Source: Phocaeicola sp.
GTDB taxonomy: Bacteria; Bacteroidota; Bacteroidia; Bacteroidales; Bacteroidaceae
Direction of reading: 5' to 3'
NCBI GenBank assembly: GCA_051648565.1
Contig: JBOFFJ010000183.1
Location: 30,993-94,992 of the forward strand
DNA: 64,000 nt
Each line of letters opens with the position of its first letter. Within the stretch, counting starts at the first letter, position 1. Position numbers and translations under genes: made by a program. Below are positions 15,617-28,906 of this stretch, piece by piece. The notes under the pieces were generated by a model. The model saw nothing but the letters and a program-made list of their open reading frames with translations, was not told the origin of the DNA and did no database searches.

Positions 15617-15623
15617 ATAGAAT

Positions 15624-16082: not shown

Positions 16083-16118
16083 TAGTATCACATTAGTAAA
16101 AAAAAAAAAGAGTAAATA

Positions 16119-16712
16119 ATGGCAGGAAAAAAAAGAGTGATGCCTGGAATCAATTCCAGCTCAACAGCCGATATTGCCTTTATGTTGCTTATTTTCTTCC
16201 TAACGACAACATCAATGGATACCGACCGCGGTTTGGCAAGACGTTTGCCACAACCACCGGAAAAGGAGCAAACTAAAGATGACAACATTATCGTGAAGGA
16301 ACGTAATGTACTCCAAGTTCGCCTTAACAAGGATAATATGATTATGTGCGGACAGGATTATGTGGAAATTAAGCAATTAAGAGATAAAGCAAAAGAGTTT
16401 ATTGCTAATCCGTATGATGATGAAAATCTTCCTGAAAAACATAGAAAAGAGATTATCTTGTTGGGAGATTGTATGATTACTGAGAAGCACGTTATTTCTG
16501 TACAAACAGACGTTGGTACAAGTTATGATGTTTACTTTCAGGCTCAGAATGAGTTGATTGCTGCATACAATGAGTTGAGAGACGAGTTGGCAAAATCAAA
16601 ATTTGGAACATCTTATATTTCATGTAACGAAGACCAACAGAAAGCGATACGTGATTTCTATCCACAAAAGATTTCTGAAGCTGAACCTAAAAAATATGGA
16701 GGCAAGAAGTAA
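16119..16712 (+). CDS. exbD: Biopolymer transporter ExbD/TolR family
   Basis: N-terminal TM with SSTADIAFMLLIFFL (conserved Asp). Confidence 0.9.
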   Translation: MAGKKRVMPGINSSSTADIAFMLLIFFLTTTSMDTDRGLARRLPQPPEKEQTKDDNIIVKERNVLQVRLNKDNMIMCGQDYVEIKQLRDKAKEFIANPYDDENLPEKHRKEIILLGDCMITEKHVISVQTDVGTSYDVYFQAQNELIAAYNELRDELAKSKFGTSYISCNEDQQKAIRDFYPQKISEAEPKKYGGKK

Positions 16713-17176
16713 TGGGAAAATTTAATAAAACGGGAAAACGTGGAATGCCCGAGTTGAATACCTCATCTCTACCTGACTTGATCTTCACCATGTTGTTCTT
16801 CTTTATGATTGTAACAACCATGCGTGAGGTAACCTTAAAGGTTCAATTTCAGGTACCACAAGGTACTGAGCTCGAAAAATTGGAAAAGAAATCATTGGTA
16901 ACATTTATCTATATTGGTAAGCCAATGCCTGAGTTCCAAAAGAAGATGGGTGCTGAAAGTCGTATTCAGTTAAACGATAAATTTGAAGATGTAGGTGCCG
17001 TTCAGGACTATATTACTCAAGAGCGTTTGAATATGAAAGAAGAGGATCAACCCTTTATGACAGTTTCGTTGAAGGTCGATAAAGAGACTAAAATGGGTGT
17101 TGTAACGGATGTGAAACAAGCACTTCGTCAAGCGTATGCTTTAAGAATTAACTACTCTGCTACAGATCGTCAGTAG
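16712..17176 (+). CDS. exbD: Biopolymer transporter ExbD/TolR family (second copy)
   Basis: TSSLPDLIFTMLFFFM TM motif; VSLKVDKETKMG.V.DV. Confidence 0.9.
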   Translation: MGKFNKTGKRGMPELNTSSLPDLIFTMLFFFMIVTTMREVTLKVQFQVPQGTELEKLEKKSLVTFIYIGKPMPEFQKKMGAESRIQLNDKFEDVGAVQDYITQERLNMKEEDQPFMTVSLKVDKETKMGVVTDVKQALRQAYALRINYSATDRQ

Positions 17177-17189
17177 TTTAATCCATACT

Positions 17190-17226
17190 AAAAAAGAGAT
17201 TGCAAAACTGCAATCTCTTTTTTTTT
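17190..17226. terminator. Bidirectional terminator between exbD and the convergent accessory locus
   Basis: AAAAAAGAGATTGCA-AAAC-TGCAATCTCTTTTTTTTT. Confidence 0.85.
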
Positions 17227-17345
17227 GGCTTTAATGAGTAGTAAATGCTTTTGAATACTTTTCCTCGTTATGAATAGGAGAATGATTTTAGAGAGGAACA
17301 ATCCTCTCTTTTTTTGTTTATCGAACGTTTTAAGTAGGGTGATTC

Positions 17346-18230
17346 TTAATAGAAATCTGAGATGGCATTTGCAGCCATTTGTGTGTAGCTATGTGCTACG
17401 CCTGGTACTTCTCTCTTCTCCCAGTTAAAGTTGCCATACTCGGCTCCTAAAGTGGATGAATGCTCCCAAAAGTAAAGCCCTCTTTCGTATCGATGCAGCC
17501 CTTGTTTATCTGTCTCTGGCGAATGATTTAAGTTGGCATCATTGGGATTGGTATCATTCTGCCCCAGTTGTAGAATCAGCTGATTGCTCAGTGCCTTTTT
17601 AATCTTAGTCACATTGCTTGGCGAATCTTTGAGTCCGTAGGGGAACTCCACCTCCCAGTCAGGAACGGTATACCACCCTGCATTGGCGGAGATGGCTTGG
17701 CCAATGGGGGCATCGGGTTTGAATAGGAGGTAGCGATGTACAAACTGTGCACCTGCCGAATGTCCCCACATGTCATAACTGGTGGGCTGGATGGAGAGCT
17801 CTTGGCAGATGTATTGAAACAGCGGTTCAATGAGGGAGAAGGTCCACTCTGCTTCTGTTTTTTCTTTCTTATTCAGAAACATGCCTCCTTCGATGTAATC
17901 GGCAGAGGGATAAAACTTGGTGGAGAATTCGAGTGCGAAGAGTAGAATCCCTTTCTTGTCGGCTCCTGCTTTCCAAGCTTCGAGGTAGTCATCTGCATTT
18001 CTGTTTACTCCGGGAAAAAGGAATAGGATGGGCATCTTGCTTATATCTCCTTTGGGAATGTAGTAGTGTACCTGAACAGGTTTTTGTGCCAATGGCTGGT
18101 ATTTGTTGTAGGTTACTACTCCTGTGCCTTGCTGAAAGATTTCACTGTTGCCCTCTTCCATGGGATCACCTCCCCAGCAGCTTGTCAAGGCAAGCAGCAT
18201 GAGGAGGTGAGCTAATTGGGTTATTTTCAT
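17346..18230 (-). CDS. Lipoprotein alpha/beta-hydrolase (serine hydrolase; possibly poly(aspartate) hydrolase PahZ1-like)
   Basis: Lipobox LTSC, nucleophile elbow GHSAG(AQFVHR), ANAGWY, candidate Asp in GQNDT and His in GVAH; the PahZ1 resemblance is recalled, not computed. Confidence 0.75.
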   Translation of the reverse strand: MKITQLAHLLMLLALTSCWGGDPMEEGNSEIFQQGTGVVTYNKYQPLAQKPVQVHYYIPKGDISKMPILFLFPGVNRNADDYLEAWKAGADKKGILLFALEFSTKFYPSADYIEGGMFLNKKEKTEAEWTFSLIEPLFQYICQELSIQPTSYDMWGHSAGAQFVHRYLLFKPDAPIGQAISANAGWYTVPDWEVEFPYGLKDSPSNVTKIKKALSNQLILQLGQNDTNPNDANLNHSPETDKQGLHRYERGLYFWEHSSTLGAEYGNFNWEKREVPGVAHSYTQMAANAISDFY

Positions 18231-18239
18231 GATCTAGTG

Positions 18240-19451
18240 TTAGAATACAATGTGGGTGTTAATGCCTACCGAAAAGAGTTTATTCTCTTTGTCAAGGTCT
18301 GAGTAGTTTTCGTATTGTCCTACTAGTTGCAACTTAAGGCGGTTGTCAATGATGTATTTGGCTACACCAAAGCTTATTCCGTCAGTTTTCTTTATGAGAC
18401 TTTGCTTCTCTCTCCACTCTGGCGTCAGATGGCTGTATCTAACATCAATGGCCCAGTTCTTCGGGAAAAGGTATCCCGCTTGTGCACTGATGCCACTACC
18501 TAGTACCAAGTAATCGGCTATTTGGGTAGGTTGAAGTTTAGAGCTGGAGCTGGTTGTCAAGTGGAGATTGTCTAGGTTGCGGGCCCAAGCATCTACATAC
18601 TCTGTTAGGAAGGTAAATCCTTGGTACTTGAACATCAAGTTGAGTGACATCTTGATGTAGTCGGGAAATGCTTTCTTGCCAGTTGCATCGTACATCATAA
18701 AGTTGCCATGTCCCTCACCAATGGCATCACTTGCTCCACGGTTGTAGCTATACGATCCCCCAATAAGTAATTTAGGGGTTTTCTCGCGCGCAAAGTCGGT
18801 ATCGGTTAGGTGATTCCCTTCTGCGAAGAAGCCCATTGGATAAAAGGTGGCTTGCGCACTGTACTTTAATCCTCCTAAATCGAAATCGGTAGATGAGCTA
18901 CCAAAGGAGTTAATTCCATCTCCAGTAGTGACAGCTACCCCTAGGTCGAATCCTGTTTTTTGTAGAGGAAGGCGTGTCTCTACAAAGAGTCCTAGTTCGC
19001 GTCCTGTATTGTAAAAAGTACGGTTGGTTAAGCTTCTATTTCCCAGTGCTAAGGCTTGATCATAAAACATCATGGAGCGTGTACCCGAAAAGGATTGTTT
19101 TTGACCGACACTGATGGATAGGTTCTTTAATGGATTGTAGCCAATCCATGCATCTAGTAGTGGATACGAACGGGTGAAATCCATTTGAAGCTGAAACGTA
19201 AACTGTTCATCATTCAGTCCACCACTTAGGCCTAGATAGGCACGGTTAATGTCGAATCGGTATTCGGCATCTGTTCCTTTGAGTTCTGAATAGGCTCCTC
19301 CTGCCTGAACAAAGCCACCTACATTGAAATAGTGTTTCCCTTTGTTGAGTTCTACCGTTAATCCATTTCCTAATTGGAAGTTGGTGCGACTGTTTTGTGC
19401 CAACGCACCCATTGCAAATGTTGCAAATAGTATAGTTATAATTTTTTTCAT
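18240..19451 (-). CDS. Outer-membrane porin, OprO/OprP (phosphate-selective porin)-like
   Basis: Signal peptide, alternating beta-strand pattern, RFDINRAYL, SVGQKQSF, GRELG motifs, C-terminal Phe. Confidence 0.75.
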   Translation of the reverse strand: MKKIITILFATFAMGALAQNSRTNFQLGNGLTVELNKGKHYFNVGGFVQAGGAYSELKGTDAEYRFDINRAYLGLSGGLNDEQFTFQLQMDFTRSYPLLDAWIGYNPLKNLSISVGQKQSFSGTRSMMFYDQALALGNRSLTNRTFYNTGRELGLFVETRLPLQKTGFDLGVAVTTGDGINSFGSSSTDFDLGGLKYSAQATFYPMGFFAEGNHLTDTDFAREKTPKLLIGGSYSYNRGASDAIGEGHGNFMMYDATGKKAFPDYIKMSLNLMFKYQGFTFLTEYVDAWARNLDNLHLTTSSSSKLQPTQIADYLVLGSGISAQAGYLFPKNWAIDVRYSHLTPEWREKQSLIKKTDGISFGVAKYIIDNRLKLQLVGQYENYSDLDKENKLFSVGINTHIVF

Positions 19452-19479
19452 ATCCTTTATGTCTGTAAGATGTTTGACA

Positions 19480-21009
19480 CTAATTCATGAAGCGGAAAAC
19501 AGGTAACTGCTCCCCTTCTTGGGCTTCAATGATTTTATAATTCACAAATCCATTTGATGATTCTGGTTCGAGCATCACTGCCACCAATCGACCTCTTTTT
19601 TGGTTGGTACGTACTATGTGTGTACCTATAGGTAGCTGAATGCTCTTTTTCTGAAGGGTGGTAGTTACCTTGATAGGTGTAAATGTAGCAAAGGATATTT
19701 GTTCCTCTTCTTGCTTAGTTACCTTGAAAACTTCTACCTCTACATCCATGGCTTCTGCTAGTTGGATTGTCTCGATGCCCATTTTATGAAGCGTTTCGAT
19801 GGCTCTTTTCTCTGTTGGGAGGATAAAGTATTTAGTTGGTAACTCTCTAGCCTGTTTAATTTCTGACTTCATGGCATTCGAAACCGTCAAATTCAGTGTA
19901 TCCAGCCTATTTTTTAGTTGGTTTACGAAGGGAAGAGGGTACTCTTCTATTCTCTCTGAACTAAACTCTATAGCCACTGGTTTTACCTCTTTACTAGCTG
20001 CATGGATGGCCTCTAGTAGCTGTTCGTTGTTGTTGTAGGTTGTATGTGCAAAGCTTTGGGCCAGCAAGTATACATTTTGAATTCTTCGATTGATGCCTGC
20101 TCTTCCCAGTCCGATGCCTCGTGTCTCTGTTAAAATGGTAAATGCATTGTTGAGTGCAAGTGAGTTGGTTGTTGATCTGGGTGAAGTACCTCCTAGGTTC
20201 ATTACCACACCACTGCTTGTCTTCTTAGGAGTGTAGTAGGTGTGTGAAGAGTGGTTATTTTCCTTCAATACTTGCTTTACATTGGCTATGAATAGTGATT
20301 CTACAGAAGCTCTAATGGGGCTTGCTACGTTGGGGTTGCCAGAGGTTAAAAACATCACGTCCCACGGTAAGGAGAGTACCTCACTCGACAAGAGTGAATA
20401 GGCACTCTTAAGGGGTTGGTATTCGTGAAAATCGATGCAAACATGTGGGTCGGCTTGATTTACCACCTTGCGTAGTGCTACTGCCTCGGGTGTTTCTAAG
20501 CGCACTTGGTCACGGTTTAAGTCAATCCCATTGGCTGTTTGACGTGTCATACGTTGAGCACCATCGGCATTCACCATGGGAAGTATGTAGAAATCAATCC
20601 TCTCTAAAAGAGTTTTCATGGTGGGGTCTGAAGTCACTTTTTCAATAAAATGCAACAACCCTTCGGTACCCGCTGGTTCGTCACCGTGTATACGTGCCAT
20701 GTAAAGCACCCTCATTTTGGTAGTTGCTGCTTGTTTGTTAGATAGTTTCACCAAGAGAATTTCTCTCTCTCTTTGTGTTTTTCCTACCTCCTCTACCTCC
20801 ATAATCTCCTGGTTAGCCTTTTGTAGCTCAAACAGATAGCTCTTCATCTCTTTGAAGGAGGTATATCCTGTTGATTTTGAACCAATGGGACTTTTTGTTT
20901 CCCACTGGGTGGGATTGGGAAAGAATTTCTGTTGAACCTTTTTTAAATCTTGCGCAGCGAGTGTGCTAAATAGTATAGAGGCCAGAAATAGATATAGTTT
21001 TTTGTTCAT
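19480..21009 (-). CDS. Secreted M14 zinc carboxypeptidase
   Basis: Signal peptide; HGDEP (HxxE), NADG, ANGIDLNRD, DFHE, ETRG: complete M14 zinc/catalytic set. Confidence 0.88.
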   Translation of the reverse strand: MNKKLYLFLASILFSTLAAQDLKKVQQKFFPNPTQWETKSPIGSKSTGYTSFKEMKSYLFELQKANQEIMEVEEVGKTQREREILLVKLSNKQAATTKMRVLYMARIHGDEPAGTEGLLHFIEKVTSDPTMKTLLERIDFYILPMVNADGAQRMTRQTANGIDLNRDQVRLETPEAVALRKVVNQADPHVCIDFHEYQPLKSAYSLLSSEVLSLPWDVMFLTSGNPNVASPIRASVESLFIANVKQVLKENNHSSHTYYTPKKTSSGVVMNLGGTSPRSTTNSLALNNAFTILTETRGIGLGRAGINRRIQNVYLLAQSFAHTTYNNNEQLLEAIHAASKEVKPVAIEFSSERIEEYPLPFVNQLKNRLDTLNLTVSNAMKSEIKQARELPTKYFILPTEKRAIETLHKMGIETIQLAEAMDVEVEVFKVTKQEEEQISFATFTPIKVTTTLQKKSIQLPIGTHIVRTNQKRGRLVAVMLEPESSNGFVNYKIIEAQEGEQLPVFRFMN

Positions 21010-21021
21010 AATCTTGTTCGT

Positions 21022-22422
21022 TTAAAATGCGAGTTGGAATAATAAGGTGAAACTTTTCTCCCATCCACTTACTGACTCCTCATTGGGGTTGCGAATCGTT
21101 CCATTGGTCTTGGCTAGCCCAAAGTTGGCTTGTACTTTGGCGGCATACGATTTACTTAAATATTTGGTCACGCAGAAATCCATGTAATCGCTTCGGTTGA
21201 AGAAAAGATCGTTGTTCATGAATGAATATTCATCAGGCATAAGGTGGGTGTAGCGCACATCGAACGAGAAGAAGTTGCGCATCAGATAACCTGCCTGGAT
21301 GTTGTAACCCGAACCAATCATCATTCTATTTTTGATGTAGTTCTCTATGTTATTCTCTCCATTAATCGTAAAGTCTGACGATACAGTTCCGTCTGTACGT
21401 ACGCGGTAAGCAATAGATGAAGGAACATGTGCCCAGGTCTTTACATACTCTCCCAACATGCTAAATCCTTGCCACTTAAACATAAAGTCTAGTGTAAGCT
21501 TACCCATATCGGGTAGTGCACTCCTTTTATCGGCATCTTGGTAAAGAATAGCTCCTCCTTCGCGTCCGCCTCTACGGTCACTTACTCCATCGTTGTAGCT
21601 GTACGAAGCTCCTATAACCAATCTGGGTTTAATCTCGAAAGCTAGATCAGATTGGCGTGTTTCGCCAGCTAGGCGGAAGAGGCCAAAGGGAAGGTAGTTT
21701 AGGCGTGCACCATATTTTAATCCACCGTATCTCTTCTCGGCACTGATGGGCCCATCGCCATCGGTTATTGAAACCGAGGGGCGCAGGTAGCTAGAGGTAC
21801 CCACTTTGTAAGTGCCTGAAGCAACCACACCAATTTCTCGGATGGTACCAAAGAGTGAGCTTAACTTACTTCGGTCTGTAAACTGCAGGGTGGCAGAGTT
21901 CATCTGCAACTCGCGGTTGTCGGTAGGGGTTGAACGTTGTCCAAAAGAGATGGAGAGTTTGTTATTTCCCCAAGGGTGATAGGCTACAAAAGCATCGGAT
22001 AGCATCGCTCCAACCCCTTCGGCATCGGTTTCACTTCCCTTTACCATATCTAGTCCCAATCGGTACCTTATTTTGTTGTTAAAGGCTTTCCCATTCAGTC
22101 TAAGGCGGGCACGTCTTACCCTAAAGCGTGAATAGAGCTCATCGCCTTCAGGGTACATTTGGGTTTGAAAGGTGGTTTGAATATAGCCACTCAGGTTCAT
22201 TCCATAGGAATCGGTAGTGGAGAGAAGTGAGATACCATCTCCCAATGTATAGCTATCTAATTGAAATCTCTTTTTCATTTGGTAGAGATCCTCTGCATAG
22301 TCTCCATCTTGTAGGTCATCGAAATCAATCGACACATCTTCATCCGTCTGTGCAAATAGAGGAACGCCCATATTTCCTAGCAGGAAGAGTGTGATAAATA
22401 GAACTAGTTTGTTTATTTTCAT
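21022..22422 (-). CDS. Outer-membrane porin, OprO/OprP-like (paralogue of 18240-19451)
   Basis: Signal peptide from MKINKL; RFRVRRARL, SFGQ, IREIG, GGLKYG motifs; C-terminal Phe. Confidence 0.75.
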   Translation of the reverse strand: MKINKLVLFITLFLLGNMGVPLFAQTDEDVSIDFDDLQDGDYAEDLYQMKKRFQLDSYTLGDGISLLSTTDSYGMNLSGYIQTTFQTQMYPEGDELYSRFRVRRARLRLNGKAFNNKIRYRLGLDMVKGSETDAEGVGAMLSDAFVAYHPWGNNKLSISFGQRSTPTDNRELQMNSATLQFTDRSKLSSLFGTIREIGVVASGTYKVGTSSYLRPSVSITDGDGPISAEKRYGGLKYGARLNYLPFGLFRLAGETRQSDLAFEIKPRLVIGASYSYNDGVSDRRGGREGGAILYQDADKRSALPDMGKLTLDFMFKWQGFSMLGEYVKTWAHVPSSIAYRVRTDGTVSSDFTINGENNIENYIKNRMMIGSGYNIQAGYLMRNFFSFDVRYTHLMPDEYSFMNNDLFFNRSDYMDFCVTKYLSKSYAAKVQANFGLAKTNGTIRNPNEESVSGWEKSFTLLFQLAF

Positions 22423-22441
22423 GTTGAATGATTTAAATGGA

Positions 22442-23587
22442 TTATACTTCAAAATTACCTTTGCGAACCATCTTCTGCTCTTTCATAAACTCTATGCCTT
22501 GAGAGATGACATGCGTGAGTCTGAATGATTGATCGAAGAAGCAGAAGTCGGCATCATAGCCCACCTTTATCTCACCTTTATTTTTCAATTTCATATTCTT
22601 GGCTGCATTCTCCGTAACCAGCTTAAAGGCATCTTTGGGATGCATTCCTCCTTCGGTAATGAGTTTGATGGTCTGCTCTAAGTTTAGATGCAAGGGTGCC
22701 AACTTGTAGGTATCTACACCTGTTATTGGGTCAATGCGTCTTACACCTGCATTGCCATCACTGCTGAAAGAGATTCTACTGATGTCGACTCCTTGTTCCA
22801 ATGCCATCAGTACCGCTTTATAGGGCTCTGTAAATTTGGTTCCTCCAGTAGATATGTCAATCATGCCACCTAACTTGGCAAACTCAATTGCTTGATTAAA
22901 TAGCGCTTCGGTTCGGATGGTATGGGTGGGTGAAATGTAATGAACAAGTGTGGGATACTTCTTGGCTATATCGAGTAATAGCGACATGCCATCGGGCAAT
23001 CCTCCTAGGTGAACATGCATCACTCCTCCTTTGGCCGATGTAAAGCCACCCAAACGTACTTGGTTAATAATGCGTAGCAATTCCTCTTCGGTGGGGTGTG
23101 AGCTTCGGTCGTCACAGATGGCAATCTTACACCCGATAACTGGATCGATGTAGATTAAATCTTCGGTTACCGAGTTGGTGAGCGTCGGCGTAGGAAGACC
23201 ATAAAAGCCTGTTAGCATGTAGGCAGAAAGTCCATTCATTCTTAATGACATGGTTTTAGCATAGAGCTGGGGTAGTTTCTTTACAAATCCATCTGTACCT
23301 AGTAGCCCTACTACGGTAGTGGTGCCACAGGCTACTAATGCTTGTACTTGCACCTCGGGTGCTAATGAGCTAAAACCTGTTTGGCCACCGCCGCCAATCA
23401 CATGTACGTGAATGTCAATCAATCCTGGAGTAACCCAGGCCCCTGCTGCATCAATTACTTCTACCTCTAAGTTGCCCGTATCGATGCAACTATCAATGGC
23501 AGCAATCTTATTGTTGTGAATAAGAATCTGTTTTAAATCGGCCTCTACACTGTGATAAAGGCGTGCGTTTGTTATAAGTTTAAACAT
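22442..23587 (-). CDS. iadA: Beta-aspartyl peptidase / isoaspartyl dipeptidase, IadA-like amidohydrolase
   Basis: PGLIDIHVHVIGGGG, GTTTVVGLLGTDG, MLTGFY, IGCKIAI.D.RS, HVHLG, PTH..R, SSDGNA align with E. coli IadA metal-ligand motifs. Confidence 0.88.
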   Translation of the reverse strand: MFKLITNARLYHSVEADLKQILIHNNKIAAIDSCIDTGNLEVEVIDAAGAWVTPGLIDIHVHVIGGGGQTGFSSLAPEVQVQALVACGTTTVVGLLGTDGFVKKLPQLYAKTMSLRMNGLSAYMLTGFYGLPTPTLTNSVTEDLIYIDPVIGCKIAICDDRSSHPTEEELLRIINQVRLGGFTSAKGGVMHVHLGGLPDGMSLLLDIAKKYPTLVHYISPTHTIRTEALFNQAIEFAKLGGMIDISTGGTKFTEPYKAVLMALEQGVDISRISFSSDGNAGVRRIDPITGVDTYKLAPLHLNLEQTIKLITEGGMHPKDAFKLVTENAAKNMKLKNKGEIKVGYDADFCFFDQSFRLTHVISQGIEFMKEQKMVRKGNFEV

Positions 23588-23593
23588 GGTGCA

Positions 23594-24973
23594 TTAGATG
23601 AATAAGTAGTTGTAGAATAACATAAAAATCAACGCTCCTCCGAGGGGGATGAAATTACGCTTGGCTAAATCAAATGGAGAGACACCTGCTACTTCGGCAA
23701 TGGCAATAATAACGCCTGCAATGGGGGAGGTAGCTCTACCCATACTGGCCGAGAGTTGCATGGGTAGTATCATGTCTGCCGATGGTATGCCCAATTTTTG
23801 TGCAATCGAAGGTACAAGTGGTCCGAATGAGAAGAAAGAGGCATTACCGCTTCCCATGAGCATGGCAGCAAAGAAAATAAGAATGGTAATGGCTATTCCA
23901 ATGGCCACTCCCGAGAAGCCTACGTGTGTGGCACCCTCTACCAATGCATTGATTAGCCCCAAGTTAATAAGCCCTTTTGAGAAGACCTCTGCGCAAACAA
24001 TGAGTGTAACTACATCGGTGAATACTTTTCCCATCCCATTCCAAAAAGCCTTAATACTGTTGTAGGTATCTTTAAAGCTCTTGGTGCGACATAAATCAAA
24101 CAGCATAGCAATAATGAGCGATACCACCATGGCAGTGGTTGTATCTAACTCTATAGCTGGATGAAAGAGTTGCAAATACTTGGAGAATAGAATCAACATT
24201 AAGAGTGGCAGAACCGGTAATAGGGCAAAAATAAGGGGTACTTCCAGTTTCATTTCAGTGACTTGGATAGGCTTTTCGGCCACTATTTTACCCGCTTCTA
24301 GATCTTTCTTATCAAAGTATCGATTGGTGAAGTAATAGAGTATCATTAGCAATATAGTCATTGGGATAGCCATAGGTAGTTGGTGCTCAATGAAATACAT
24401 TACATTGTTCATCTCTAATAGTTCCGATGCTTTTGCTGTATTGGCTGAGCCAGGTCCCATATCGAAAACGGTACAAGCCGAGATAACCGAAACGGCTGTC
24501 AATCTACTTACTCCTAGATTAACCAGTACGGGTAGGATAGAGGCAACCAATAGCAGCCCTAATCCCGCTGCACTGGGTGTACAGATAAAGAGTAGCTGTC
24601 CTATGGGAATGATTGAAATAGCTGCCATGTAAGGGTATTTACGGAAGAGTGATAACGGTTGCATTGATACATAGACCAACGCATCACTAGCCTTAATTTG
24701 TTTCATGTAGGCCACATAGCCTCCGATAGACATAATCATTAAACCTACTCTCACTAAGTTGGTAGAGAAGGTCTCTACTACAATTTTGAATAGGTCAAAG
24801 AAGGCCCCACCTGTAGGTTTAACTGGTTCAAGCGATTGCCCAAGTAGCCCTGCAATGGCTAGCATGGCAATACCAGTGACCAAAAGTACCACCTGTGGAT
24901 TGTATTTTTTATATAGCCAATAAGCCGTGAGTATGATAAACTGAACGGCTATTATTACTCCTAGTAGTGTCAT
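23594..24973 (-). CDS. dcuC: C4-dicarboxylate transporter, DcuC family
   Basis: ~12 TM; IMSIGGYVAYM, MGSGNA.FFSF.PL.P.IA, LPMQ..S.MGR..SPIAGV, VSPF...KR. Confidence 0.87.
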   Translation of the reverse strand: MTLLGVIIAVQFIILTAYWLYKKYNPQVVLLVTGIAMLAIAGLLGQSLEPVKPTGGAFFDLFKIVVETFSTNLVRVGLMIMSIGGYVAYMKQIKASDALVYVSMQPLSLFRKYPYMAAISIIPIGQLLFICTPSAAGLGLLLVASILPVLVNLGVSRLTAVSVISACTVFDMGPGSANTAKASELLEMNNVMYFIEHQLPMAIPMTILLMILYYFTNRYFDKKDLEAGKIVAEKPIQVTEMKLEVPLIFALLPVLPLLMLILFSKYLQLFHPAIELDTTTAMVVSLIIAMLFDLCRTKSFKDTYNSIKAFWNGMGKVFTDVVTLIVCAEVFSKGLINLGLINALVEGATHVGFSGVAIGIAITILIFFAAMLMGSGNASFFSFGPLVPSIAQKLGIPSADMILPMQLSASMGRATSPIAGVIIAIAEVAGVSPFDLAKRNFIPLGGALIFMLFYNYLFI

Positions 24974-24998
24974 ATATATATAGGTATTTGTAATGTTA

Positions 24999-26456
24999 CT
25001 ATTCTCCTCTAACTAATCCTGCCTTGTCACTACTTCCACTTCCTAGTTGGTCGTAAAGAGCAGCAGGTACCGTATAGGTTACTTCAACACCATCAACTTT
25101 ATTCTTACCCATGTTGAGTGTTTTTAAATTGGCATAACTTGTTGGCCGAATAAAATCGGCTGGTACTATTTCATTGGCGCTTAAATTAATAGTAACTAGG
25201 AGACTATTTTTGCTTAGATCTACCGCTTTTAATCGATCGAGTGAACTTGATGCTGATCCTTGAATATCTAAATTGATCAATTTAGTATTTTTCGATAGAT
25301 CCAATACGCTAAGGCCTGCCGTACGTACAATAAGTGATTTTAGCTCGGTTAAGTTCTCAAGTGGAAGAGCCTCTGTAAAGGCGTTAGAGGTAGCTATAAT
25401 TTCAGTCACTCCCGAAAAGAGTTGTAGCCCATCTGCATTGGCTATTTTTACAGCTGCAGTAGCTATGCCTGCTGTTTCTAGTTTAGTAATAAAAGCGCTC
25501 GCTTTACTGATGTTTAGAATACCTGTATAAGTGGCTGCAATCTCGGTGTCGATATAGATTTTATCCTCTTTAAGAATCACAACTCCTTCTGGCAATTTCA
25601 AAGTAGCATCTTCCACATTATTCATTAAGTAGTACAGATAGTCTGCAAAGGCTTGGTCTTTGACTAGGTACTCCTTGTCCGAAGGTGTTTCGCCATTGTT
25701 ATCTTCGGCTGGTTCAACTCCCTTTTTGGTTATTAATTGGTCGTATAGATCTTGTGGAATGGGGAAGTTAGCACCTGTATTTCCTGATAAATCTAGATCG
25801 ACTAAGTTCGCATACAAAGTAGGCAGCTTTAATCCCTCTTTCGTAATGAGGTGATTGATTAGATAGATGTGTTCGGCTTTTGTATTTCCAGCTAAGTCAA
25901 TGGCTGTAAGTCGTTGGTTCTCGGTTGCGCTTGAGCTAGCACTGTATCTTAATCGCTTAATCGAGGTAGGAAGGATTAGTTCATTGACCAAGTTGGCATT
26001 CATTTCAAGCGTGTCTAACTGGGTAAGTTCACTTAAATCCAACTTCCCTTCGACTGAATTTGAGGTTAGCTTTAAGTTGCTGCATTGCGTGAAATATTGA
26101 ATTCCATCTAAGTTACTAATTTTTACAGCTGCCGAGGCTACTCCTGCTGCTTCGAGTGCTTCAATGCGCTTTGCATCTTTTACTAGGTATAGTGCTTTTA
26201 CCTCTTTTGCTTTAGTTGTATCGAGTAGAAAATTATCATCTTGTTTGATACAGATGCCATAGGGTAATAGATTTTCGCTTGTTGCTGCTAACGTAGTGTT
26301 ATAAATTAAGTATTCGGCAAATGCTACGTCACTGAGTGGGTATAAGGTTGTTTCATCTGGTTCTTCTACTGATGATTGAACATCTTCTGTAGAGCAACTG
26401 AAGAAAAAGGAGATAAACCCGATTAGGAGCATGAAGTGGTGTGTAATTCTTCTCAT
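24999..26456 (-). CDS. Leucine-rich-repeat surface lipoprotein made of two homologous ~210-aa modules
   Basis: Lipobox FFFSC; LxxLxLxxN repeats; internal duplication DVAFAEYLIY.../DQAFADYLYY... Confidence 0.8.
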   Translation of the reverse strand: MRRITHHFMLLIGFISFFFSCSTEDVQSSVEEPDETTLYPLSDVAFAEYLIYNTTLAATSENLLPYGICIKQDDNFLLDTTKAKEVKALYLVKDAKRIEALEAAGVASAAVKISNLDGIQYFTQCSNLKLTSNSVEGKLDLSELTQLDTLEMNANLVNELILPTSIKRLRYSASSSATENQRLTAIDLAGNTKAEHIYLINHLITKEGLKLPTLYANLVDLDLSGNTGANFPIPQDLYDQLITKKGVEPAEDNNGETPSDKEYLVKDQAFADYLYYLMNNVEDATLKLPEGVVILKEDKIYIDTEIAATYTGILNISKASAFITKLETAGIATAAVKIANADGLQLFSGVTEIIATSNAFTEALPLENLTELKSLIVRTAGLSVLDLSKNTKLINLDIQGSASSSLDRLKAVDLSKNSLLVTINLSANEIVPADFIRPTSYANLKTLNMGKNKVDGVEVTYTVPAALYDQLGSGSSDKAGLVRGE

Positions 26457-26540
26457 CTTTACTTTTTATTAATTGAATGATTTTTTTTGTTATAGCTGTC
26501 AAAGTAAAGGCTAAACCATAAATAAAGAGGTGAATATAGC

Positions 26541-26557
26541 CATTAACGAAACATTAA
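26541..26557 (-). promoter_or_regulatory. Candidate activator site: TTAATG direct repeat at 11-bp period upstream of the LRR-dcuC-iadA operon
   Basis: + strand CATTAA at 26541 and 26552; a -7-like TTACTTTG at 26500-26507 on the - strand. Confidence 0.4.
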
Positions 26558-26777
26558 TACCAAACATAATTGTCTCCTATTTGTTTGTTAACTTCTATGT
26601 AATAAACCATTTATGGCTAAAATGTATTCCTGCTGGGGTAATTAGGCAGATTCTATTGAGGTGTTGTGAAAGGGTATGAAAGGATGGCCAACCTCTAGGT
26701 TAATGAGGTAGGCAGTGGGTAGCATAGGGAGAAAAAAGAGGTAAAGAGAGTAGAAGAAATGGGTTTGAGAGAGGAGG

Positions 26778-28256
26778 TTAATCGGCCATTTTTAGGAGGT
26801 CGGCAAAAGAGAGAGTAAAGGTTTCTCCATAGACCTGTTTATACTCTTGGCAGAATTTATCATAGAAGGTTTTAGCAGCAGAGTGTCTTCCTGATTTTAC
26901 GTAAGCTCTGCATTTTAAAGAGAGAGCTTGTTCATTGATACTTTCAAATTTAAGCATTACATCGGCCATTCCAATGTAGATATCGGTTGTATGATTCTCA
27001 TTCATGGTGGCCGAATAGGCTAGAAACTTATCAAAGAGTTCATTCGAGATGTTACCCTTTAATTCATCTAGCCATTCGTATGGCTGCTCAGGAAGTATAT
27101 TTCCTTGCGCAGTCAATGAACAGAGTAGTTCGATTTCCGATCTGGATCGTAATCCTACTGCTCCTAAGGTTGTACGATACTGTAAATAGTCTATAAATGC
27201 GTCCTTCGTTTGAATGCTCCAATAGCTGTCATCGTTCGTGATTTCAAAGTCGCCCACCTCTGTTAACAGGTTGCGTAGTTTTCCTAGATTTACTGCCCTG
27301 TTATTACGCGCACTGGCTACTGTTTTATCCAGCCATAGATAAGATTTCATCTTTTCGGCCGAAATCCCTTTTTTATCCGAATGGAGAATCAGAAGAGCCA
27401 GTAACTCTTTTAGAATGGGAGAGAATCGTTTGGTTATATCTTCGCCTTCTTTGTTATAGATGCGCATTCCACCAAAGAGGTAGATAGCCGATTTAGTAGG
27501 AAGTAGGGGCTTGCTTAGGTAGATAGGAGAGCTTAAAGATACCTCATTCAAGTTACTGCTTCCCTCTTTTTTTAGTTTCCGATGTCGGTAGTACATCCAT
27601 GAGAAAATCAGGATGTCAAGTACAATAATTACTATGTACCAGATAATTGAATTTCCTTTTCGTGAATCTTGGACAGCCTCTACGCTGAAATTTTGAATGG
27701 TTGGACCATCTCTCTCTTGGATGGAGTGATTAGAAGGGGTTGTATTTAGATGAATGGCAAATTTATACCCGTAATCAACCGAAAGTCCAGTCTGCCCTAT
27801 CTCAATGGTATTATTCTCTCCTACGCAGAGTTTTACCAGATCTTTGCGCATGTCGAATTCAATTAAAATGGGAATGCTAGTTGCCTCAAAAAAAGAGGAA
27901 CCTATGGGTATACTCTTTTTGGTTAGTGTCATGTTCTTACCAAAAAGAAGGTTTAAACTGTTTAATTTAGGCTCTCCATCTAGAATGAAATAGATTGTCT
28001 CTTTTTGTGAGGTAGTAGCTGATAACAAGAAGAAGCTAAAGTCGGTCGACTCTTTTCCTCTGGCTAGATTAAACCGGATGGTTACTTTTTCATCAAAATA
28101 AGAGAATTCATTCTCCGATAGAAAGGTTTCGGGATCAATCTCGATTAATCTCCTTGTTGACTCATTTCCGAGTAAATTGGTCGGTAAAATGGAGCAGATG
28201 AGCCATACAAGAAGAAGTCTACACATGAATGAACTGTTTCTAACGTTGATATGCAT
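26778..28256 (-). CDS. Membrane-anchored one-component transcriptional regulator (periplasmic sensor - TM - SARP/BTAD-like DNA-binding region)
   Basis: Signal-like N-terminus, single TM IIWYIVIIVLDILIFSWMYY, then IYLFGGMRIYNKEG.DIT..FSP.LKELL...W.DK...SARNNR.VN..KLR typical of Bacteroidetes SARP-like activators. Confidence 0.78.
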   Translation of the reverse strand: MHINVRNSSFMCRLLLVWLICSILPTNLLGNESTRRLIEIDPETFLSENEFSYFDEKVTIRFNLARGKESTDFSFFLLSATTSQKETIYFILDGEPKLNSLNLLFGKNMTLTKKSIPIGSSFFEATSIPILIEFDMRKDLVKLCVGENNTIEIGQTGLSVDYGYKFAIHLNTTPSNHSIQERDGPTIQNFSVEAVQDSRKGNSIIWYIVIIVLDILIFSWMYYRHRKLKKEGSSNLNEVSLSSPIYLSKPLLPTKSAIYLFGGMRIYNKEGEDITKRFSPILKELLALLILHSDKKGISAEKMKSYLWLDKTVASARNNRAVNLGKLRNLLTEVGDFEITNDDSYWSIQTKDAFIDYLQYRTTLGAVGLRSRSEIELLCSLTAQGNILPEQPYEWLDELKGNISNELFDKFLAYSATMNENHTTDIYIGMADVMLKFESINEQALSLKCRAYVKSGRHSAAKTFYDKFCQEYKQVYGETFTLSFADLLKMAD

Positions 28257-28363
28257 TGATAAATAGAGGTTTTACTAGCTGGCAAAGATATGATTTTTCA
28301 CGCTAATCACCAGCAGCAATAACCTCTATTATGATATCATCTTACGATTGTGAAAATGGTGCT

Positions 28364-28903
28364 CTATCCTAGTTGGTTGTATACCTCTCTGTGAATCTCC
28401 GATTTAATCTTTTTATACTCCCGCTCCATGTTGATGTTGCCATAGCTCATTAAATAGAGTGGTAGCTCTTGGCCTCCTACTCGGTAGGGGGGCTGTATAT
28501 AGGGCAGTTCGTGTAGCGTAAAATCAGCTCGTTTGTAGAAGTTGATTCTTCTGCTACTCATTTCGTCATTGGGATGCTCTACCTCTAGAATGATGGGGAG
28601 ATTTCCGGCAATCTCTTTGATTTTATCTAAGAGCTGTTTCCCATAGCCTCCGTTGCGTAGGTTAGGATCAATGGCTATATGCTCTACGTAGCAAAAAATG
28701 TCAAACTTCCACAGGTTGACAAACCCTATAAGCTGCTCTTCCTCTTCTATTATATAGCAGTGAAAGTGGGAATTGTTATCGGTATAGAAGCGTTGTGCAT
28801 CATTCTCTCTTCGTTCTACTTCGGGAAAGGCAGTCACTAATAAATTCTCTACAAAGGTATACTCCTTTTCATCGGTTGTTTTAATCTTTCTAAGTTTAAT
28901 CAT
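28364..28903 (-). CDS. GNAT family N-acetyltransferase
   Basis: YVEHIAIDPNLRNGGYG acetyl-CoA motif, ILEVE, RRINFY. Confidence 0.88.
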   Translation of the reverse strand: MIKLRKIKTTDEKEYTFVENLLVTAFPEVERRENDAQRFYTDNNSHFHCYIIEEEEQLIGFVNLWKFDIFCYVEHIAIDPNLRNGGYGKQLLDKIKEIAGNLPIILEVEHPNDEMSSRRINFYKRADFTLHELPYIQPPYRVGGQELPLYLMSYGNINMEREYKKIKSEIHREVYNQLG

Positions 28904-28906
28904 GGT

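What the first reader, a model, noticed from the sequence alone, without database searches (positions are those of the whole stretch)
17346..28256. Candidate new utilisation system: SusC/D-free, porin-based locus for an aspartate-rich polyanionic peptide or polymer
Seen: eight co-oriented genes with short gaps (6-25 bp between the seven structural genes), closed by a strong bidirectional terminator at 17190. In transcription order: membrane SARP-like regulator, LRR lipoprotein, DcuC, IadA-like peptidase, porin, M14 carboxypeptidase, porin, GHSAG hydrolase lipoprotein. Known: IadA cleaves beta-Asp-X bonds, Dcu-type carriers move C4-dicarboxylates (some also aspartate), OprO/P porins pass anions, and M14 enzymes trim C-terminal residues. 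Inference: this is a complete sensing, surface binding, depolymerisation, outer-membrane entry, periplasmic trimming, inner-membrane uptake and cytoplasmic cleavage chain for poly(aspartate), isoAsp-damaged peptides, cyanophycin-derived backbone or an N-acyl-aspartate. It works like a Bacteroidetes PUL but targets a peptide polymer and lacks the SusC/SusD pair. I know of no description of this gene combination.
Basis: partly seen in the sequence, partly recalled or inferred. Interest (0 to 1): 0.88.

Follow-up and report, generated by a model that had tools for sequence, protein, structure and literature searches.

The report
Conserved beta-aspartyl polymer utilisation operon
A Bacteroidales operon, conserved across gut and marine Bacteroidota, links a homologue of the only known poly(aspartic acid) hydrolase to enzymes and transporters for importing and digesting a beta-aspartyl acidic polymer, but no activity has been tested and the natural substrate is unknown.

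Summary
Eight minus-strand genes lie at 17346-28256, and the seven structural genes are 6-28 bp apart. A perfect 15-bp palindromic terminator closes them at 17190-17223.

The strongest new evidence concerns the last gene, a 294-aa lipoprotein. It is a homologue of PahZ1, the poly(aspartic acid) hydrolase (PDB 6VE6, E=4e-51). It keeps all four residues shown to be needed for activity.

The core DcuC, IadA, porin, M14, porin set lies within 10 kb of the PahZ1 homologue in 18 of 80 species-level genomes. It is partly present in 19 more. The flanks differ between genomes. Some Bacteroidales carry SusC/SusD in place of the porins, and other lineages add DASS or Glt/DctA dicarboxylate carriers.

The regulator folds as a membrane-anchored SARP. 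A conserved ATTAAT repeat operator precedes the operon in eight genomes.

Three points count against a simple reading:
- The surface LRR protein and the PahZ1 homologue are acidic.
- The IadA subfamily never keeps the substrate-binding Glu77.
- No activity, induction or natural substrate is known.

I found no published description of this cluster. Verdict: a real unit, probably for beta-aspartyl polyanion catabolism, and a new variant of a known kind. Interest is about 0.6.

The parts
26778..28256 (-). Membrane-anchored SARP-like one-component regulator (492 aa). It has an N-terminal signal or anchor, an extracytoplasmic beta-sandwich (about aa 35-197), a TM helix (203-235), and a cytoplasmic winged-helix plus helical (BTAD-like) domain (257-489).
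   Evidence: There is no Pfam or PDB sequence hit. The AF2 model has pLDDT 85.5. Foldseek matches the C-terminal half to the AfsR SARP (8hvr_I, 8k60; TMt about 0.55) and to EmbR (2fez), and the N-terminal half to LamG/galectin/PL7-type jelly rolls. Orthologues at 30-77% identity lie beside the operon in 7 other genomes, on either side and on either strand.
28283..28290 (-). TATCTTTG, a match to the Bacteroidetes -7 promoter box (TAnnTTTG), 27-34 nt upstream of the regulator's ATG.
   Evidence: Read directly from the sequence. The consensus is from my own knowledge of Bacteroides promoters. No statistical test was done.
26518..26558 (-). Candidate operator: four direct repeats (ATTAAT, GTTAAT, ATTCAC, ATTTAT) phased at 11-12 nt, upstream of the first structural gene.
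   Evidence: The exact TTAATG-N5-TTAATG occurs in only 3 of 93 loci (about 1.5 Mb). Each time it lies upstream of the LRR gene. The block is conserved in an alignment of 8 orthologous upstream regions, including genomes where the regulator gene lies downstream.
26500..26507 (-). TTACTTTG, a near-consensus -7 box about 44 nt upstream of the LRR gene ATG. It is conserved in position in orthologues (TAAATTTG in Butyricimonas).
   Evidence: A perfect TATGTTTG at 26568-26575 is not conserved in L005.
24999..26456 (-). Acidic lipoprotein (485 aa) with two internalin-like LRR modules. The lipobox is FFFS|C21, followed by STEDV, which fits a Bacteroidetes surface-export signal.
   Evidence: Pfam LRR_4 scores 20.9 bits, below the cut-off. 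PDB internalin hits are at E 5e-5 to 1e-3, on aa 80-171 and 299-453. pI is 4.72; the orthologue median is 4.73. The gene is conserved as the first gene in Bacteroidales loci.
23594..24973 (-). DcuC-family inner-membrane carrier (459 aa).
   Evidence: NCBIfam NF037994 DcuC_1 scores 393 bits (cut-off 100) and Pfam DcuC gives 1.8e-69. It is directly upstream of the IadA gene in nearly every locus that has both, and separated from it only by the M14 gene in L087.
22442..23587 (-). IadA-like beta-aspartyl peptidase of the amidohydrolase superfamily (381 aa). It has no signal peptide and is therefore cytoplasmic. It belongs to a divergent subfamily with Gln at the Glu77 position and Gly at the Ser289 position.
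   Evidence: PDB 7cdh and 1onw match at E 2e-72 and 8e-66 over the full length. TIGR01975 scores 320 bits, just under the cut-off of 331. Residue mapping was done in 30 orthologues.
21022..22422 (-). OprO/P-family outer-membrane porin 1 (466 aa from the ATG at 22422). It is Arg-rich, has a type-I signal peptide and ends in Phe.
   Evidence: Pfam Porin_O_P scores 30.6 bits (gathering score 20.9). There are 15 invariant Arg among 15 orthologues. pI is 8.5.
19480..21009 (-). Secreted M14 zinc carboxypeptidase (509 aa) with an extra C-terminal beta-rich domain (about aa 345-509).
   Evidence: Pfam M14 scores 88.8 bits. H108, E111, R156, N165, R166, H195, Y258 and E295 are invariant in 36 orthologues. 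The AF2 model has pLDDT 92.6. Foldseek matches CPA4, CPA1, CPT and bacterial CCPs at E about 1e-14, TMt 0.65-0.71.
18240..19451 (-). OprO/P-family porin 2 (403 aa), a paralogue of porin 1.
   Evidence: hhalign of A4 against A5 gives probability 100%, E 2.6e-80. The orthologue in L006 has a weak Porin_O_P hit.
17346..18230 (-). PahZ1-family serine hydrolase lipoprotein (294 aa). The lipobox is LALTS|C18. Key residues are GHSAG 156-160, D226, R247 and H280.
   Evidence: PDB 6ve6 (PahZ1 KT-1) matches at E 4.4e-51, 9o7u (PahZ1 KP-2) at 2.2e-49 and 3d0k at 2.3e-35. C18, GHSAG, D226, R247 and H280 are invariant in 21 homologues. Identity is 37% to KT-1 and 35% to KP-2.
17190..17223 (.). Bidirectional intrinsic terminator shared with the convergent ExbB/ExbD genes.
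   Evidence: A 15-bp perfect stem with a 4-nt loop and T runs on both strands.

Best explanation
This is a two-unit catabolic locus: a regulator gene plus a seven-gene operon. It most likely takes up and degrades an acidic polymer or oligomer whose units are joined through the beta-carboxyl of aspartate (poly- or oligo-beta-aspartyl material). The end product is aspartate.

Proposed path:
1. The membrane SARP-like regulator senses something outside the cytoplasm with its jelly-roll domain. It then activates the operon from phased ATTAAT repeats. (Fold and conserved motif are shown. Sensing and activation are inferred.)
2. The PahZ1-type lipoprotein cuts beta-beta amide bonds endolytically into oligomers, at the surface or in the periplasm. 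(Homology and catalytic residues are shown. Activity and location are inferred.) The LRR lipoprotein, probably surface-exposed, has an unclear role.
3. The two Arg-rich OprO/P-type porins let the anionic oligomers cross the outer membrane. Relatives use a SusC/SusD pair in the same position. (The replacement is shown. Selectivity is inferred.)
4. The periplasmic M14 carboxypeptidase trims residues from the carboxyl end. This is the role the unrelated M28 enzyme PahZ2 plays in Sphingomonas. (Inferred.)
5. The DcuC-type carrier imports aspartate and/or short beta-aspartyl peptides. (Inferred from its invariable pairing with IadA, which is cytoplasmic.)
6. The IadA-like enzyme hydrolyses the beta-aspartyl remnants that PahZ1 cannot cut. 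(Inferred.)

The natural substrate is not known.
For: - PahZ1 homology is at E=4e-51, with S157, D225, R246 and H280 equivalents all present and invariant in the family. All six PahZ1 homologues tested so far degrade thermal poly(Asp), although they are only 35-40% identical at the extremes (PMC13017698).
- PahZ1 KP-2 cuts beta-tri(Asp) but neither alpha-tri(Asp) nor beta-di(Asp) (PMC4456602). A beta-aspartyl dipeptidase is therefore the logical partner.
- IadA is a full-length homologue with all metal ligands, D285, R169 and R233.
- Synteny: 18 of 80 species-level genomes have the full DcuC-IadA-porin-M14-porin core within 10 kb of the PahZ1 gene, and 19 more have part of it. They span Bacteroidales, Flavobacteriales and Chitinophagia-like MAGs, with unrelated flanks.
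- SusC/SusD replace the porins in L054, L087, L055 and L028.
- DASS and SDF (Glt/DctA) carriers are recurrent extra members. In non-cassette lineages, M28 and M20 exopeptidases sit next to PahZ1 genes.
- The regulator has a SARP fold, and an operator is conserved in 8 genomes.
- Contigs of one metatranscriptome span three gene junctions of an orthologous locus (weak evidence).
Against: - Nothing has been assayed. The only established PahZ1 substrate is a synthetic polymer, and no abundant natural poly-beta-aspartate is known to me.
- The window's PahZ1 homologue is acidic (pI 5.4) and has Asp-Ala where KT-1 has the His230/His231 pair. Lower-pI homologues were the poorer tPAA degraders.
- The LRR protein is very acidic.
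- The IadA subfamily has Gln, Lys, Thr or Arg instead of Glu77, and Gly instead of Ser289, in all 30 orthologues. Its substrate may therefore not be an ordinary beta-Asp dipeptide.
- In an NJ tree, the cassette-linked PahZ1 clade is separate from both characterised clades.
- The specificity of the M14 enzyme could not be assigned.
- Relatives of the Pedobacter KP-2 enzyme do not have the cassette next to them.
Confidence: 0.55

Rival explanations
1. A scavenging system for ordinary isoaspartyl-damaged peptides from aged or dietary protein, not for a homopolymer. Proteolysis-resistant isoAsp oligopeptides enter through the porins, are trimmed by the M14 enzyme and PahZ1, and are finished by IadA.
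For: IadA-type enzymes are generally assigned this role (PMC10206079). The locus occurs in gut and marine heterotrophs that live on protein. The acidic binding protein does not fit a pure polyanion.
Against: PahZ1 KP-2 needs three Asp units around the scissile bond (PMC4456602). Anion porins and three families of dicarboxylate carriers point to a strongly acidic, Asp-dominated substrate. The loss of Glu77 argues against the classic free-amino isoAsp dipeptide.
Confidence: 0.15
2. A utilisation system for a beta-linked polyester of a C4 hydroxy-dicarboxylate, such as poly(beta-L-malate), or for mixed ester/amide polyanions. The PahZ1-like enzyme acts as a depolymerase-type esterase. The M14 enzyme and the IadA-like enzyme act as esterases, and the carriers take up malate.
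For: The PahZ1 family is related to PHB depolymerases (3d0k at E 2e-35; NF050058 weak hit). DcuC, DASS and DctA-type carriers are classic malate/succinate carriers. Replacing the amino-binding Glu77 by Gln, Lys or Thr would suit a hydroxyl or other non-amino group. From my own knowledge, M14 carboxypeptidase A also hydrolyses esters.
Against: All characterised members of the family hydrolyse amide bonds of poly(Asp) (PMC13017698). IadA and M14 families are overwhelmingly amidases. Polymalate producers (Physarum, Aureobasidium; my own knowledge) are not obvious sources in animal guts. No esterase-specific evidence was obtained here.
Confidence: 0.1
3. A cyanophycin utilisation locus in which the PahZ1-like and M14 enzymes replace cyanophycinase. 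IadA cleaves the resulting beta-Asp-Arg.
For: A 'cyanophycin utilization locus' of cyanophycinase plus iadA plus a transporter has been described in Bacteroidetes (Ben Hania et al., as cited in PMC10206079). An acidic binding protein could bind the Arg-rich polymer. Unknown cyanophycinase isozymes have been postulated.
Against: There is no Peptidase_S51 in the window genes or among the recurrent accessory families of 25 cassette loci. No arginine-catabolic genes or basic amino acid carriers were found, only dicarboxylate-type carriers and anion porins. Beta-Asp-Arg has a free alpha-amino group, for which Glu77 would be expected to be kept.
Confidence: 0.07
4. A system for another omega-linked anionic polyamide, such as poly-gamma-glutamate.
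For: In other lineages PahZ1 genes lie near gamma-glutamyltranspeptidase (4 loci) or near PGA_cap and NlpC/P60 genes. One characterised PahZ1 is fused to a CapA-like domain (PMC13017698).
Against: None of these genes is in the cassette. IadA-type enzymes bind the aspartyl moiety. The characterised family activity is on beta-Asp bonds.
Confidence: 0.05

Closest known systems
PahZ1/PahZ2 poly(aspartic acid) degradation in Sphingomonas sp. KT-1, and PahZ1 of Pedobacter sp. KP-2
   Same: The first enzyme is from the same family, with the GHSAG serine, Asp, His and the specificity Arg. The logic is also the same: endo-cleavage of beta-beta bonds to oligomers, followed by a zinc exopeptidase that releases aspartate.
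   Different: Here the exopeptidase is M14, not the unrelated M28 enzyme PahZ2. The known system is described as enzymes only. The 2026 family paper never uses the terms 'gene cluster', 'operon' or 'neighbor', and describes no transporter, porin, dipeptidase or regulator. The window enzyme is an acidic lipoprotein that lacks the His pair. It lies in a clade separate from both characterised clades. Its activity is untested.
Bacteroidetes polysaccharide utilisation loci (Sus-like systems)
   Same: It is a co-localised set of a sensor-regulator, surface lipoprotein(s), a depolymerase, an outer-membrane importer, periplasmic trimming enzymes and an inner-membrane carrier. Close relatives of this locus do contain a SusC/SusD pair.
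   Different: This locus has no SusC/SusD. It has two OprO/P-type porins instead. The substrate is not a glycan and there are no CAZymes. The regulator is a membrane SARP-like protein rather than a hybrid two-component system, an ECF/anti-sigma pair or SusR.
Cyanophycin utilization locus of Salinivirga cyanobacteriivorans (Ben Hania et al. 2017, known to me only through PMC10206079)
   Same: It is a Bacteroidetes locus for scavenging an aspartate-based peptide polymer, and it contains iadA and a transporter.
   Different: It is built around S51 cyanophycinases, which are absent here. I could not read the original paper, so I could not compare the transporter type.
E. coli IadA (isoaspartyl dipeptidase)
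   Same: Homology covers the full length. The binuclear metal ligands, the carboxylated Lys, D285, R169, R233, T106 and Y137 are all kept.
   Different: Glu77 is Gln, and Lys, Thr or Arg in orthologues. Ser289 is Gly throughout the cassette-linked subfamily. The protein scores just below the TIGR01975 trusted cut-off.
SARP regulators (AfsR, EmbR)
   Same: The fold is an OmpR-type winged helix plus a BTAD-like helical domain. The candidate operator consists of direct repeats at about one helical turn, next to the promoter.
   Different: It is a membrane protein with an N-terminal extracytoplasmic jelly-roll domain. It occurs in Bacteroidota rather than Actinobacteria. It has no detectable sequence similarity to Pfam Trans_reg_C or BTAD.

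Membership tests
PahZ1 (poly(aspartic acid) hydrolase-1) | Significant full-length sequence similarity to the solved PahZ1 enzymes | tested here: met
   6ve6 at E 4.4e-51 and 9o7u at E 2.2e-49. Identity is 37% and 35%, against 40% between the two known enzymes.
PahZ1 (poly(aspartic acid) hydrolase-1) | Lipase-box GHSAG serine, plus Asp and His of the triad, plus the substrate-positioning Arg (KT-1 S157, D225, H280, R246) | tested here: met
   S158, D226, H280 and R247 are present, and they are invariant in 21 homologues. Their requirement is taken from PMC13017698.
PahZ1 (poly(aspartic acid) hydrolase-1) | Cationic substrate-binding surface, or the basic pair flanking the active site (KT-1 H230/H231; KP-2 R239) | tested here: not met
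   The aligned residues are D231 and A232. The whole-protein pI is 5.38.
PahZ1 (poly(aspartic acid) hydrolase-1) | Hydrolysis of thermal poly(Asp), which the authors state is the required characteristic | not testable with these tools
   This needs an enzyme assay.
IadA (isoaspartyl dipeptidase, TIGR01975) | Binuclear metal ligands, carboxylated Lys and catalytic Asp (H68, H70, K162, H201, H230, D285) | tested here: met
   All are conserved in the window protein and in 30 orthologues.
IadA (isoaspartyl dipeptidase, TIGR01975) | Substrate-binding residues E77, T106 and R233 (PMC10206079), plus S289 | tested here: not met
   T106 and R233 are kept. E77 is Gln (Lys, Thr or Arg elsewhere, never Glu). 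S289 is Gly in all.
IadA (isoaspartyl dipeptidase, TIGR01975) | Score above the curated equivalog cut-off | tested here: not met
   320.2 bits against a cut-off of 331.25.
Peptidase M14 | HxxE...H zinc ligands, the N-R carboxylate-binding pair, the catalytic Glu, and the carboxypeptidase fold | tested here: met
   H108, E111, H195, N165, R166 and E295 are invariant. Pfam scores 88.8 bits. Foldseek TMt to carboxypeptidases is 0.65-0.71. Assigning E295 as the catalytic Glu is by motif, not by superposition.
OprO/OprP porins (Pfam Porin_O_P) | Family HMM score above the gathering threshold; anion selectivity | tested here: inconclusive
   Porin 1 scores 30.6 bits against 20.9. Porin 2 belongs only through paralogy. 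There is no PDB sequence match. Selectivity cannot be tested here.
DcuC C4-dicarboxylate carriers | Score above the curated cut-off of NF037994 | tested here: met
   393 bits against 100. The transported substrate is not testable here.
SARP regulators | OmpR-type DNA-binding domain followed by BTAD | tested here: inconclusive
   The fold matches AfsR and EmbR (E 3.5e-4 to 5e-4, TMt 0.44-0.56). There is no sequence-level match to the Pfam models. The membrane topology is atypical.
Bacteroidetes PUL | Adjacent SusC-like and SusD-like gene pair | tested here: not met
   There is none among the eight genes. The pair is present in the variant loci L054, L087, L055 and L028.
Cyanophycin utilisation locus | Cyanophycinase (Peptidase_S51) | tested here: not met
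   There is no S51 hit in the window genes. S51 is also not among the 25 commonest accessory families of either neighbour survey.

The most novel reading that the evidence does not exclude
Gut and marine Bacteroidota routinely harvest a so far unrecognised natural beta-linked aspartyl (or closely similar C4-dicarboxylate) polyanion. They use a dedicated locus whose outer-membrane entry is either an anion-porin pair or SusC/SusD. Its IadA-like enzyme has a new specificity: it acts on oligo-beta-aspartyl or N-substituted substrates, because the amino-binding Glu77 is replaced. Its regulator is the founding functional example of a large family (more than 1000 representatives) of membrane-anchored SARP-like sensors in Bacteroidota.
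Probability: 0.3. Interest if true: 0.8.

Novelty: new variant of a known kind. Interest (0 to 1): 0.62.

Why it matters
Poly(aspartic acid) is made industrially as a biodegradable replacement for polyacrylate. Only PahZ1-type and PahZ2 hydrolases are known for it, and its natural counterpart is unknown.

This conserved operon would supply the missing parts of a pathway: an outer-membrane route, an alternative exopeptidase, carriers, a dipeptidase and a regulator with its operator. It would also name cultivable organisms in which to test them.

Its wide distribution in gut and marine Bacteroidota suggests that these enzymes did not evolve for a synthetic polymer. That makes the question 'what is the natural substrate of PahZ1?' directly testable.

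It also shows a utilisation locus in which anion porins and SusC/SusD are interchangeable. Finally, it points to a large uncharacterised family of membrane SARP-like regulators.

Tried and rejected
- Sequence searches of the regulator against Pfam, NCBIfam and PDB, as a single sequence and as a 6-sequence profile, found nothing. Only the fold comparison was informative.
- A profile search of the porins against PDB found nothing.
- Foldseek of the M14 model gave only generic carboxypeptidase matches, so the S1' specificity could not be assigned. The near-invariant R278 in a GG-T-S-P-R-S motif may line the pocket, but this was not verified.
- No sequencing run holds the window. Two 'RNA' runs that hold an orthologue gave contigs of 8-26 kb covering both strands. 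I treat these as DNA carry-over.
- I tested whether the relatives of the physiologically proven degrader enzyme (Pedobacter KP-2) carry the cassette next to the gene. They do not. One has an M61, M28, PahZ1, PahZ1 array instead.
- The GNAT and M64 genes upstream, and the ExbB/ExbD genes downstream, were considered as members and rejected. They are not conserved with the cluster.
- The repeat search in the 321-bp spacer gave nothing convincing on its own. The operator emerged only from comparison with orthologues.
- Literature searches for a description of this gene combination found none. The original cyanophycin utilization locus paper is not in the library.

Full report
OBSERVATION. The window carries eight consecutive minus-strand ORFs between 17346 and 28256. 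The seven structural genes are packed, with gaps of 25, 6, 19, 12, 28 and 9 bp. This takes the first porin from the ATG at 22422, as the gene call on the identical Logan contig does. The first gene, the regulator, is set apart by 321 bp. Downstream of the last gene is a perfect 15-bp palindrome with a 4-nt loop at 17190-17223. A and T runs flank it on both sides, and it is shared with the convergent ExbB/ExbD genes. The description is correct apart from one gap of 28 bp rather than at most 25.

WHAT THE GENES ARE.
- DcuC: NCBIfam NF037994 at 393 bits (cut-off 100).
- IadA-like: TIGR01975 at 320 bits (cut-off 331), and full-length matches to solved isoaspartyl dipeptidases at E 2e-72 to 8e-66.
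- M14: Pfam at 88.8 bits. The zinc ligands, the N-R pair and the presumed catalytic Glu are invariant in 36 orthologues. A confident AF2 model (pLDDT 92.6) matches carboxypeptidases A, T and bacterial CCPs (TMt 0.65-0.71). The last 165 residues or so form an extra beta-rich domain.
- Porin 1 passes the Porin_O_P gathering score. Porin 2 is its paralogue (hhalign probability 100%). Both have type-I signal peptides and a C-terminal Phe. Porin 1 has 15 invariant arginines among 15 orthologues.
- The second gene encodes a lipoprotein with two weak internalin-like LRR modules.
- The regulator has no sequence match anywhere. Its AF2 model (pLDDT 85.5) shows an extracytoplasmic beta-sandwich, one TM helix, and a winged helix plus helical domain. 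Foldseek matches the latter to the SARP modules of AfsR and EmbR.

THE KEY RESULT. The last gene encodes the 294-aa 'GHSAG hydrolase lipoprotein'. It matches the two solved poly(aspartic acid) hydrolases: PahZ1 of Sphingomonas sp. KT-1 (6VE6, E 4.4e-51) and PahZ1 of Pedobacter sp. KP-2 (9O7U, E 2.2e-49). The residues shown by mutagenesis to be required in KT-1 are S157, D225, H280 and the specificity Arg246 (PMC13017698). They align with S158, D226, H280 and R247. All four are invariant in 21 homologues, as is the lipobox Cys18. The window protein is 37% and 35% identical to the two enzymes, which are 40% identical to each other. All six homologues tested to date degrade thermal poly(Asp).

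PahZ1 KP-2 cleaves beta-tri(Asp). It does not cleave alpha-tri(Asp), and it does not cleave the dimer beta-Asp-Asp (PMC4456602). This gives a direct reason for a beta-aspartyl dipeptidase in the same operon. In Sphingomonas the second step is carried out by PahZ2, an M28 zinc exopeptidase. Here an M14 zinc exopeptidase occupies that logical place.

CONSERVATION. A scan of one genome per species found more than 560 PahZ1-like genes, and the best 80 loci were kept. With the window proteins as queries, 18 of the 80 have DcuC, IadA, porin 1, M14 and porin 2 all within 10 kb of the PahZ1 gene. A further 19 have part of the set, often because the contig ends.

In Bacteroidales the full order LRR, DcuC, IadA, porin, M14, porin, PahZ1 is kept, down to 44% PahZ1 identity, while the flanking genes differ. 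These genomes include Bacteroides sp. 51, Ca. Bacteroides intestinigallinarum, a Rikenellaceae MAG, Butyricimonas and Dysgonomonas. In Flavobacteriales (Polaribacter, Flaviramulus, Flavobacterium, Winogradskyella) and in Chitinophagia-like MAGs, the five-gene core persists with the PahZ1 gene nearby. DcuC and IadA are the tightest pair. GNAT, M64 and ExbBD are not conserved with the cluster.

VARIANTS THAT INFORM FUNCTION.
(a) In four Bacteroidales MAGs (L054, L087, L055, L028) the porins are absent. A SusC-like TonB-dependent transporter and a SusD-like protein sit in the same operon with DcuC, IadA, PahZ1 and M14. The porins and SusC/SusD are therefore alternative outer-membrane entries. The system is PUL-like in the strict sense in some genomes.
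(b) Extra inner-membrane carriers recur. DASS (Na_sulph_symp/CitMHS) follows the PahZ1 gene in flavobacterial and some Bacteroidales loci. An SDF (Glt/DctA) carrier is the last gene of the cassette in Chitinophagia-like loci. In the 34 non-cassette loci surveyed, the commonest neighbours of PahZ1 genes are DASS carriers, M20 and M28 peptidases and gamma-glutamyltranspeptidase. All of these carriers move dicarboxylates or acidic amino acids.
(c) The LRR lipoprotein and the SARP-like regulator are specific to Bacteroidales. Elsewhere they are replaced by T9SS-secreted LTD/Calx-beta proteins and by a GntR-aminotransferase regulator.
(d) No Peptidase_S51 (cyanophycinase) appeared among the recurrent families.

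REGULATION. Comparison of the 321-bp spacer with the orthologous one in L005 shows a conserved block of about 60 nt. The exact motif TTAATG-N5-TTAATG occurs in only 3 of 93 loci, each time upstream of the LRR gene. An alignment of eight orthologous upstream regions shows ATTAAT-N5-GTTAAT-N5-ATTaAc-N5-tGTTTAC, followed by a TAnnTTTG-like -7 box. The element lies about 100 to 45 nt before the start codon. It stays in front of the operon even where the regulator gene lies downstream or on the other strand (L006, L012, L013, L016). Direct repeats phased at one helical turn next to the promoter are what SARPs bind; that point is from my own knowledge. The regulator gene has its own TATCTTTG box at 28283-28290. 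The locus is therefore a regulator unit plus a seven-gene operon.

An exhaustive search with the regulator found 1251 representatives. Many are proteins of about 850 aa in which the same C-terminal module follows a Kelch beta-propeller.

POINTS AGAINST A SIMPLE READING.
- The LRR protein is strongly acidic (pI 4.72; orthologue median 4.73). The PahZ1 homologue is acidic too (pI 5.38). It has Asp-Ala where KT-1 has the His230/His231 pair, and in the published work the homologues with the lowest pI were the poorer degraders.
- The IadA-like protein keeps all metal ligands, D285, R169, R233, T106 and Y137. Glu77, a substrate-binding residue of E. coli IadA (PMC10206079), is Gln here. It is Gln, Lys, Thr or Arg, never Glu, in all 30 cassette-linked orthologues. 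Ser289 is Gly in all of them. From my own knowledge of the E. coli enzyme, Glu77 pairs with the free alpha-amino group of the substrate. The cassette enzyme may therefore act on substrates whose aspartyl amino group is substituted, as in a beta-linked trimer, or is replaced. This is an inference.
- In a rough NJ tree the cassette-linked PahZ1 proteins form clades apart from both characterised enzymes.
- Close relatives of the KP-2 enzyme are not next to a cassette. One lies in an M61, M28, PahZ1, PahZ1 array.

EXPRESSION. No public run holds the window. For the orthologous locus of Ca. Bacteroides intestinigallinarum, contigs of one metatranscriptome span the porin 1/M14, M14/porin 2 and porin 2/PahZ1 junctions. 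This is consistent with co-transcription but is weak evidence. Two other 'RNA' runs look like DNA.

MECHANISM AND RIVALS. The best-supported model is uptake and breakdown of a beta-aspartyl polyanion. PahZ1-type endo-cleavage is followed by entry of oligomers through anion porins (or SusC/D in relatives). M14 then trims them, DcuC-type import follows, and an IadA-like enzyme hydrolyses the remnants in the cytoplasm. The regulator controls the operon through the ATTAAT repeats.

What is shown: the homologies, the catalytic residues, the conserved linkage, the porin/SusCD alternation, the carrier families, the regulator fold and the conserved operator. What is inferred: every activity, the cellular locations, the order of steps and the substrate.

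Rivals are ordinary isoAsp-peptide scavenging, a beta-linked polyester such as polymalate, cyanophycin and poly-gamma-glutamate. Their confidences are given in the Rival explanations section.

NOVELTY. The enzymes belong to known families, and utilisation loci for polymers are a known kind. So is a Bacteroidetes cyanophycin locus with iadA and a transporter. I found no description of this gene combination, nor of any genomic context for PahZ1. I rate it a new variant of a known kind. Interest is moderate to high because it makes the natural role of PahZ1-type enzymes testable and names cultivable carriers.

Noticed in passing
window 22442-23587 (residue Q69 and the Gly aligned with E. coli Ser289); orthologues in 30 loci: The cassette-linked IadA subfamily never has Glu at the E. 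coli Glu77 position. It has Gln, Lys, Thr or Arg there. It always has Gly for Ser289. All catalytic and metal residues are kept. This suggests a changed substrate specificity.
   Followed up: partly
window 26500-26558 (minus strand); L005 1020-1036; L013 1807-1823: There are conserved 11-12-nt-phased ATTAAT-like direct repeats plus a -7 box upstream of the operon in eight genomes. This is a candidate operator of the SARP-like regulator.
   Followed up: partly
L054 2612-7340; L087 1126-5838; L055 1283-3064; L028 2288-6888: Variant loci carry a SusC-like and SusD-like pair in place of the two porins, in the same operon as DcuC, IadA, PahZ1 and M14.
   Followed up: partly
window 26778-28256; P0340-P0463: The regulator's C-terminal module defines a large family: 1251 representatives at E<=1e-3. 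None of the family members I scanned had a Pfam match on this module. In many proteins of about 850 aa it follows a Kelch beta-propeller and a TM segment. This looks like a modular class of membrane one-component regulators.
   Followed up: partly
L093 6742-11889 and 15030-16770: In a relative of the Pedobacter KP-2 enzyme, two PahZ1 paralogues follow M61 and M28 (PahZ2-type) peptidase genes. PGA_cap and NlpC/P60 genes lie about 4 kb away. Gamma-glutamyltranspeptidase neighbours PahZ1 genes in 4 other loci. This hints at links to other anionic polyamides.
   Followed up: no
L025 535-3295; L050 6406-8265; L037 10835-12124: In Flavobacteriales and Chitinophagia-like loci the LRR lipoprotein is replaced by T9SS-secreted proteins with LTD and Calx-beta (calcium-binding) domains. 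The regulator is replaced by a GntR-aminotransferase (MocR-type) protein.
   Followed up: partly
window 28364-30205: A GNAT acetyltransferase (179 aa) and an M64 (IgA-peptidase-type) metallopeptidase (432 aa) lie on the same strand directly upstream of the regulator. They are not conserved with the cluster.
   Followed up: partly
window 14858-17176: A convergent ExbB, 152-aa ORF, ExbD, ExbD set shares the bidirectional terminator. It is not conserved next to the cluster in relatives.
   Followed up: no
window 17290-17309: A second short hairpin (AGAGAGGA-ACAA-TCCTCTCT) with a T run on the plus strand lies between the PahZ1 gene and the main terminator. On the minus strand it lacks a T tail.
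   Followed up: no
L022, L044, L037, L040 (record titles): Some MAGs that carry the typical Bacteroidota-type cassette are labelled Comamonadaceae, Vulcanococcus limneticus or Chitinophaga pinensis. These labels may reflect mis-binning or loose naming.
   Followed up: no
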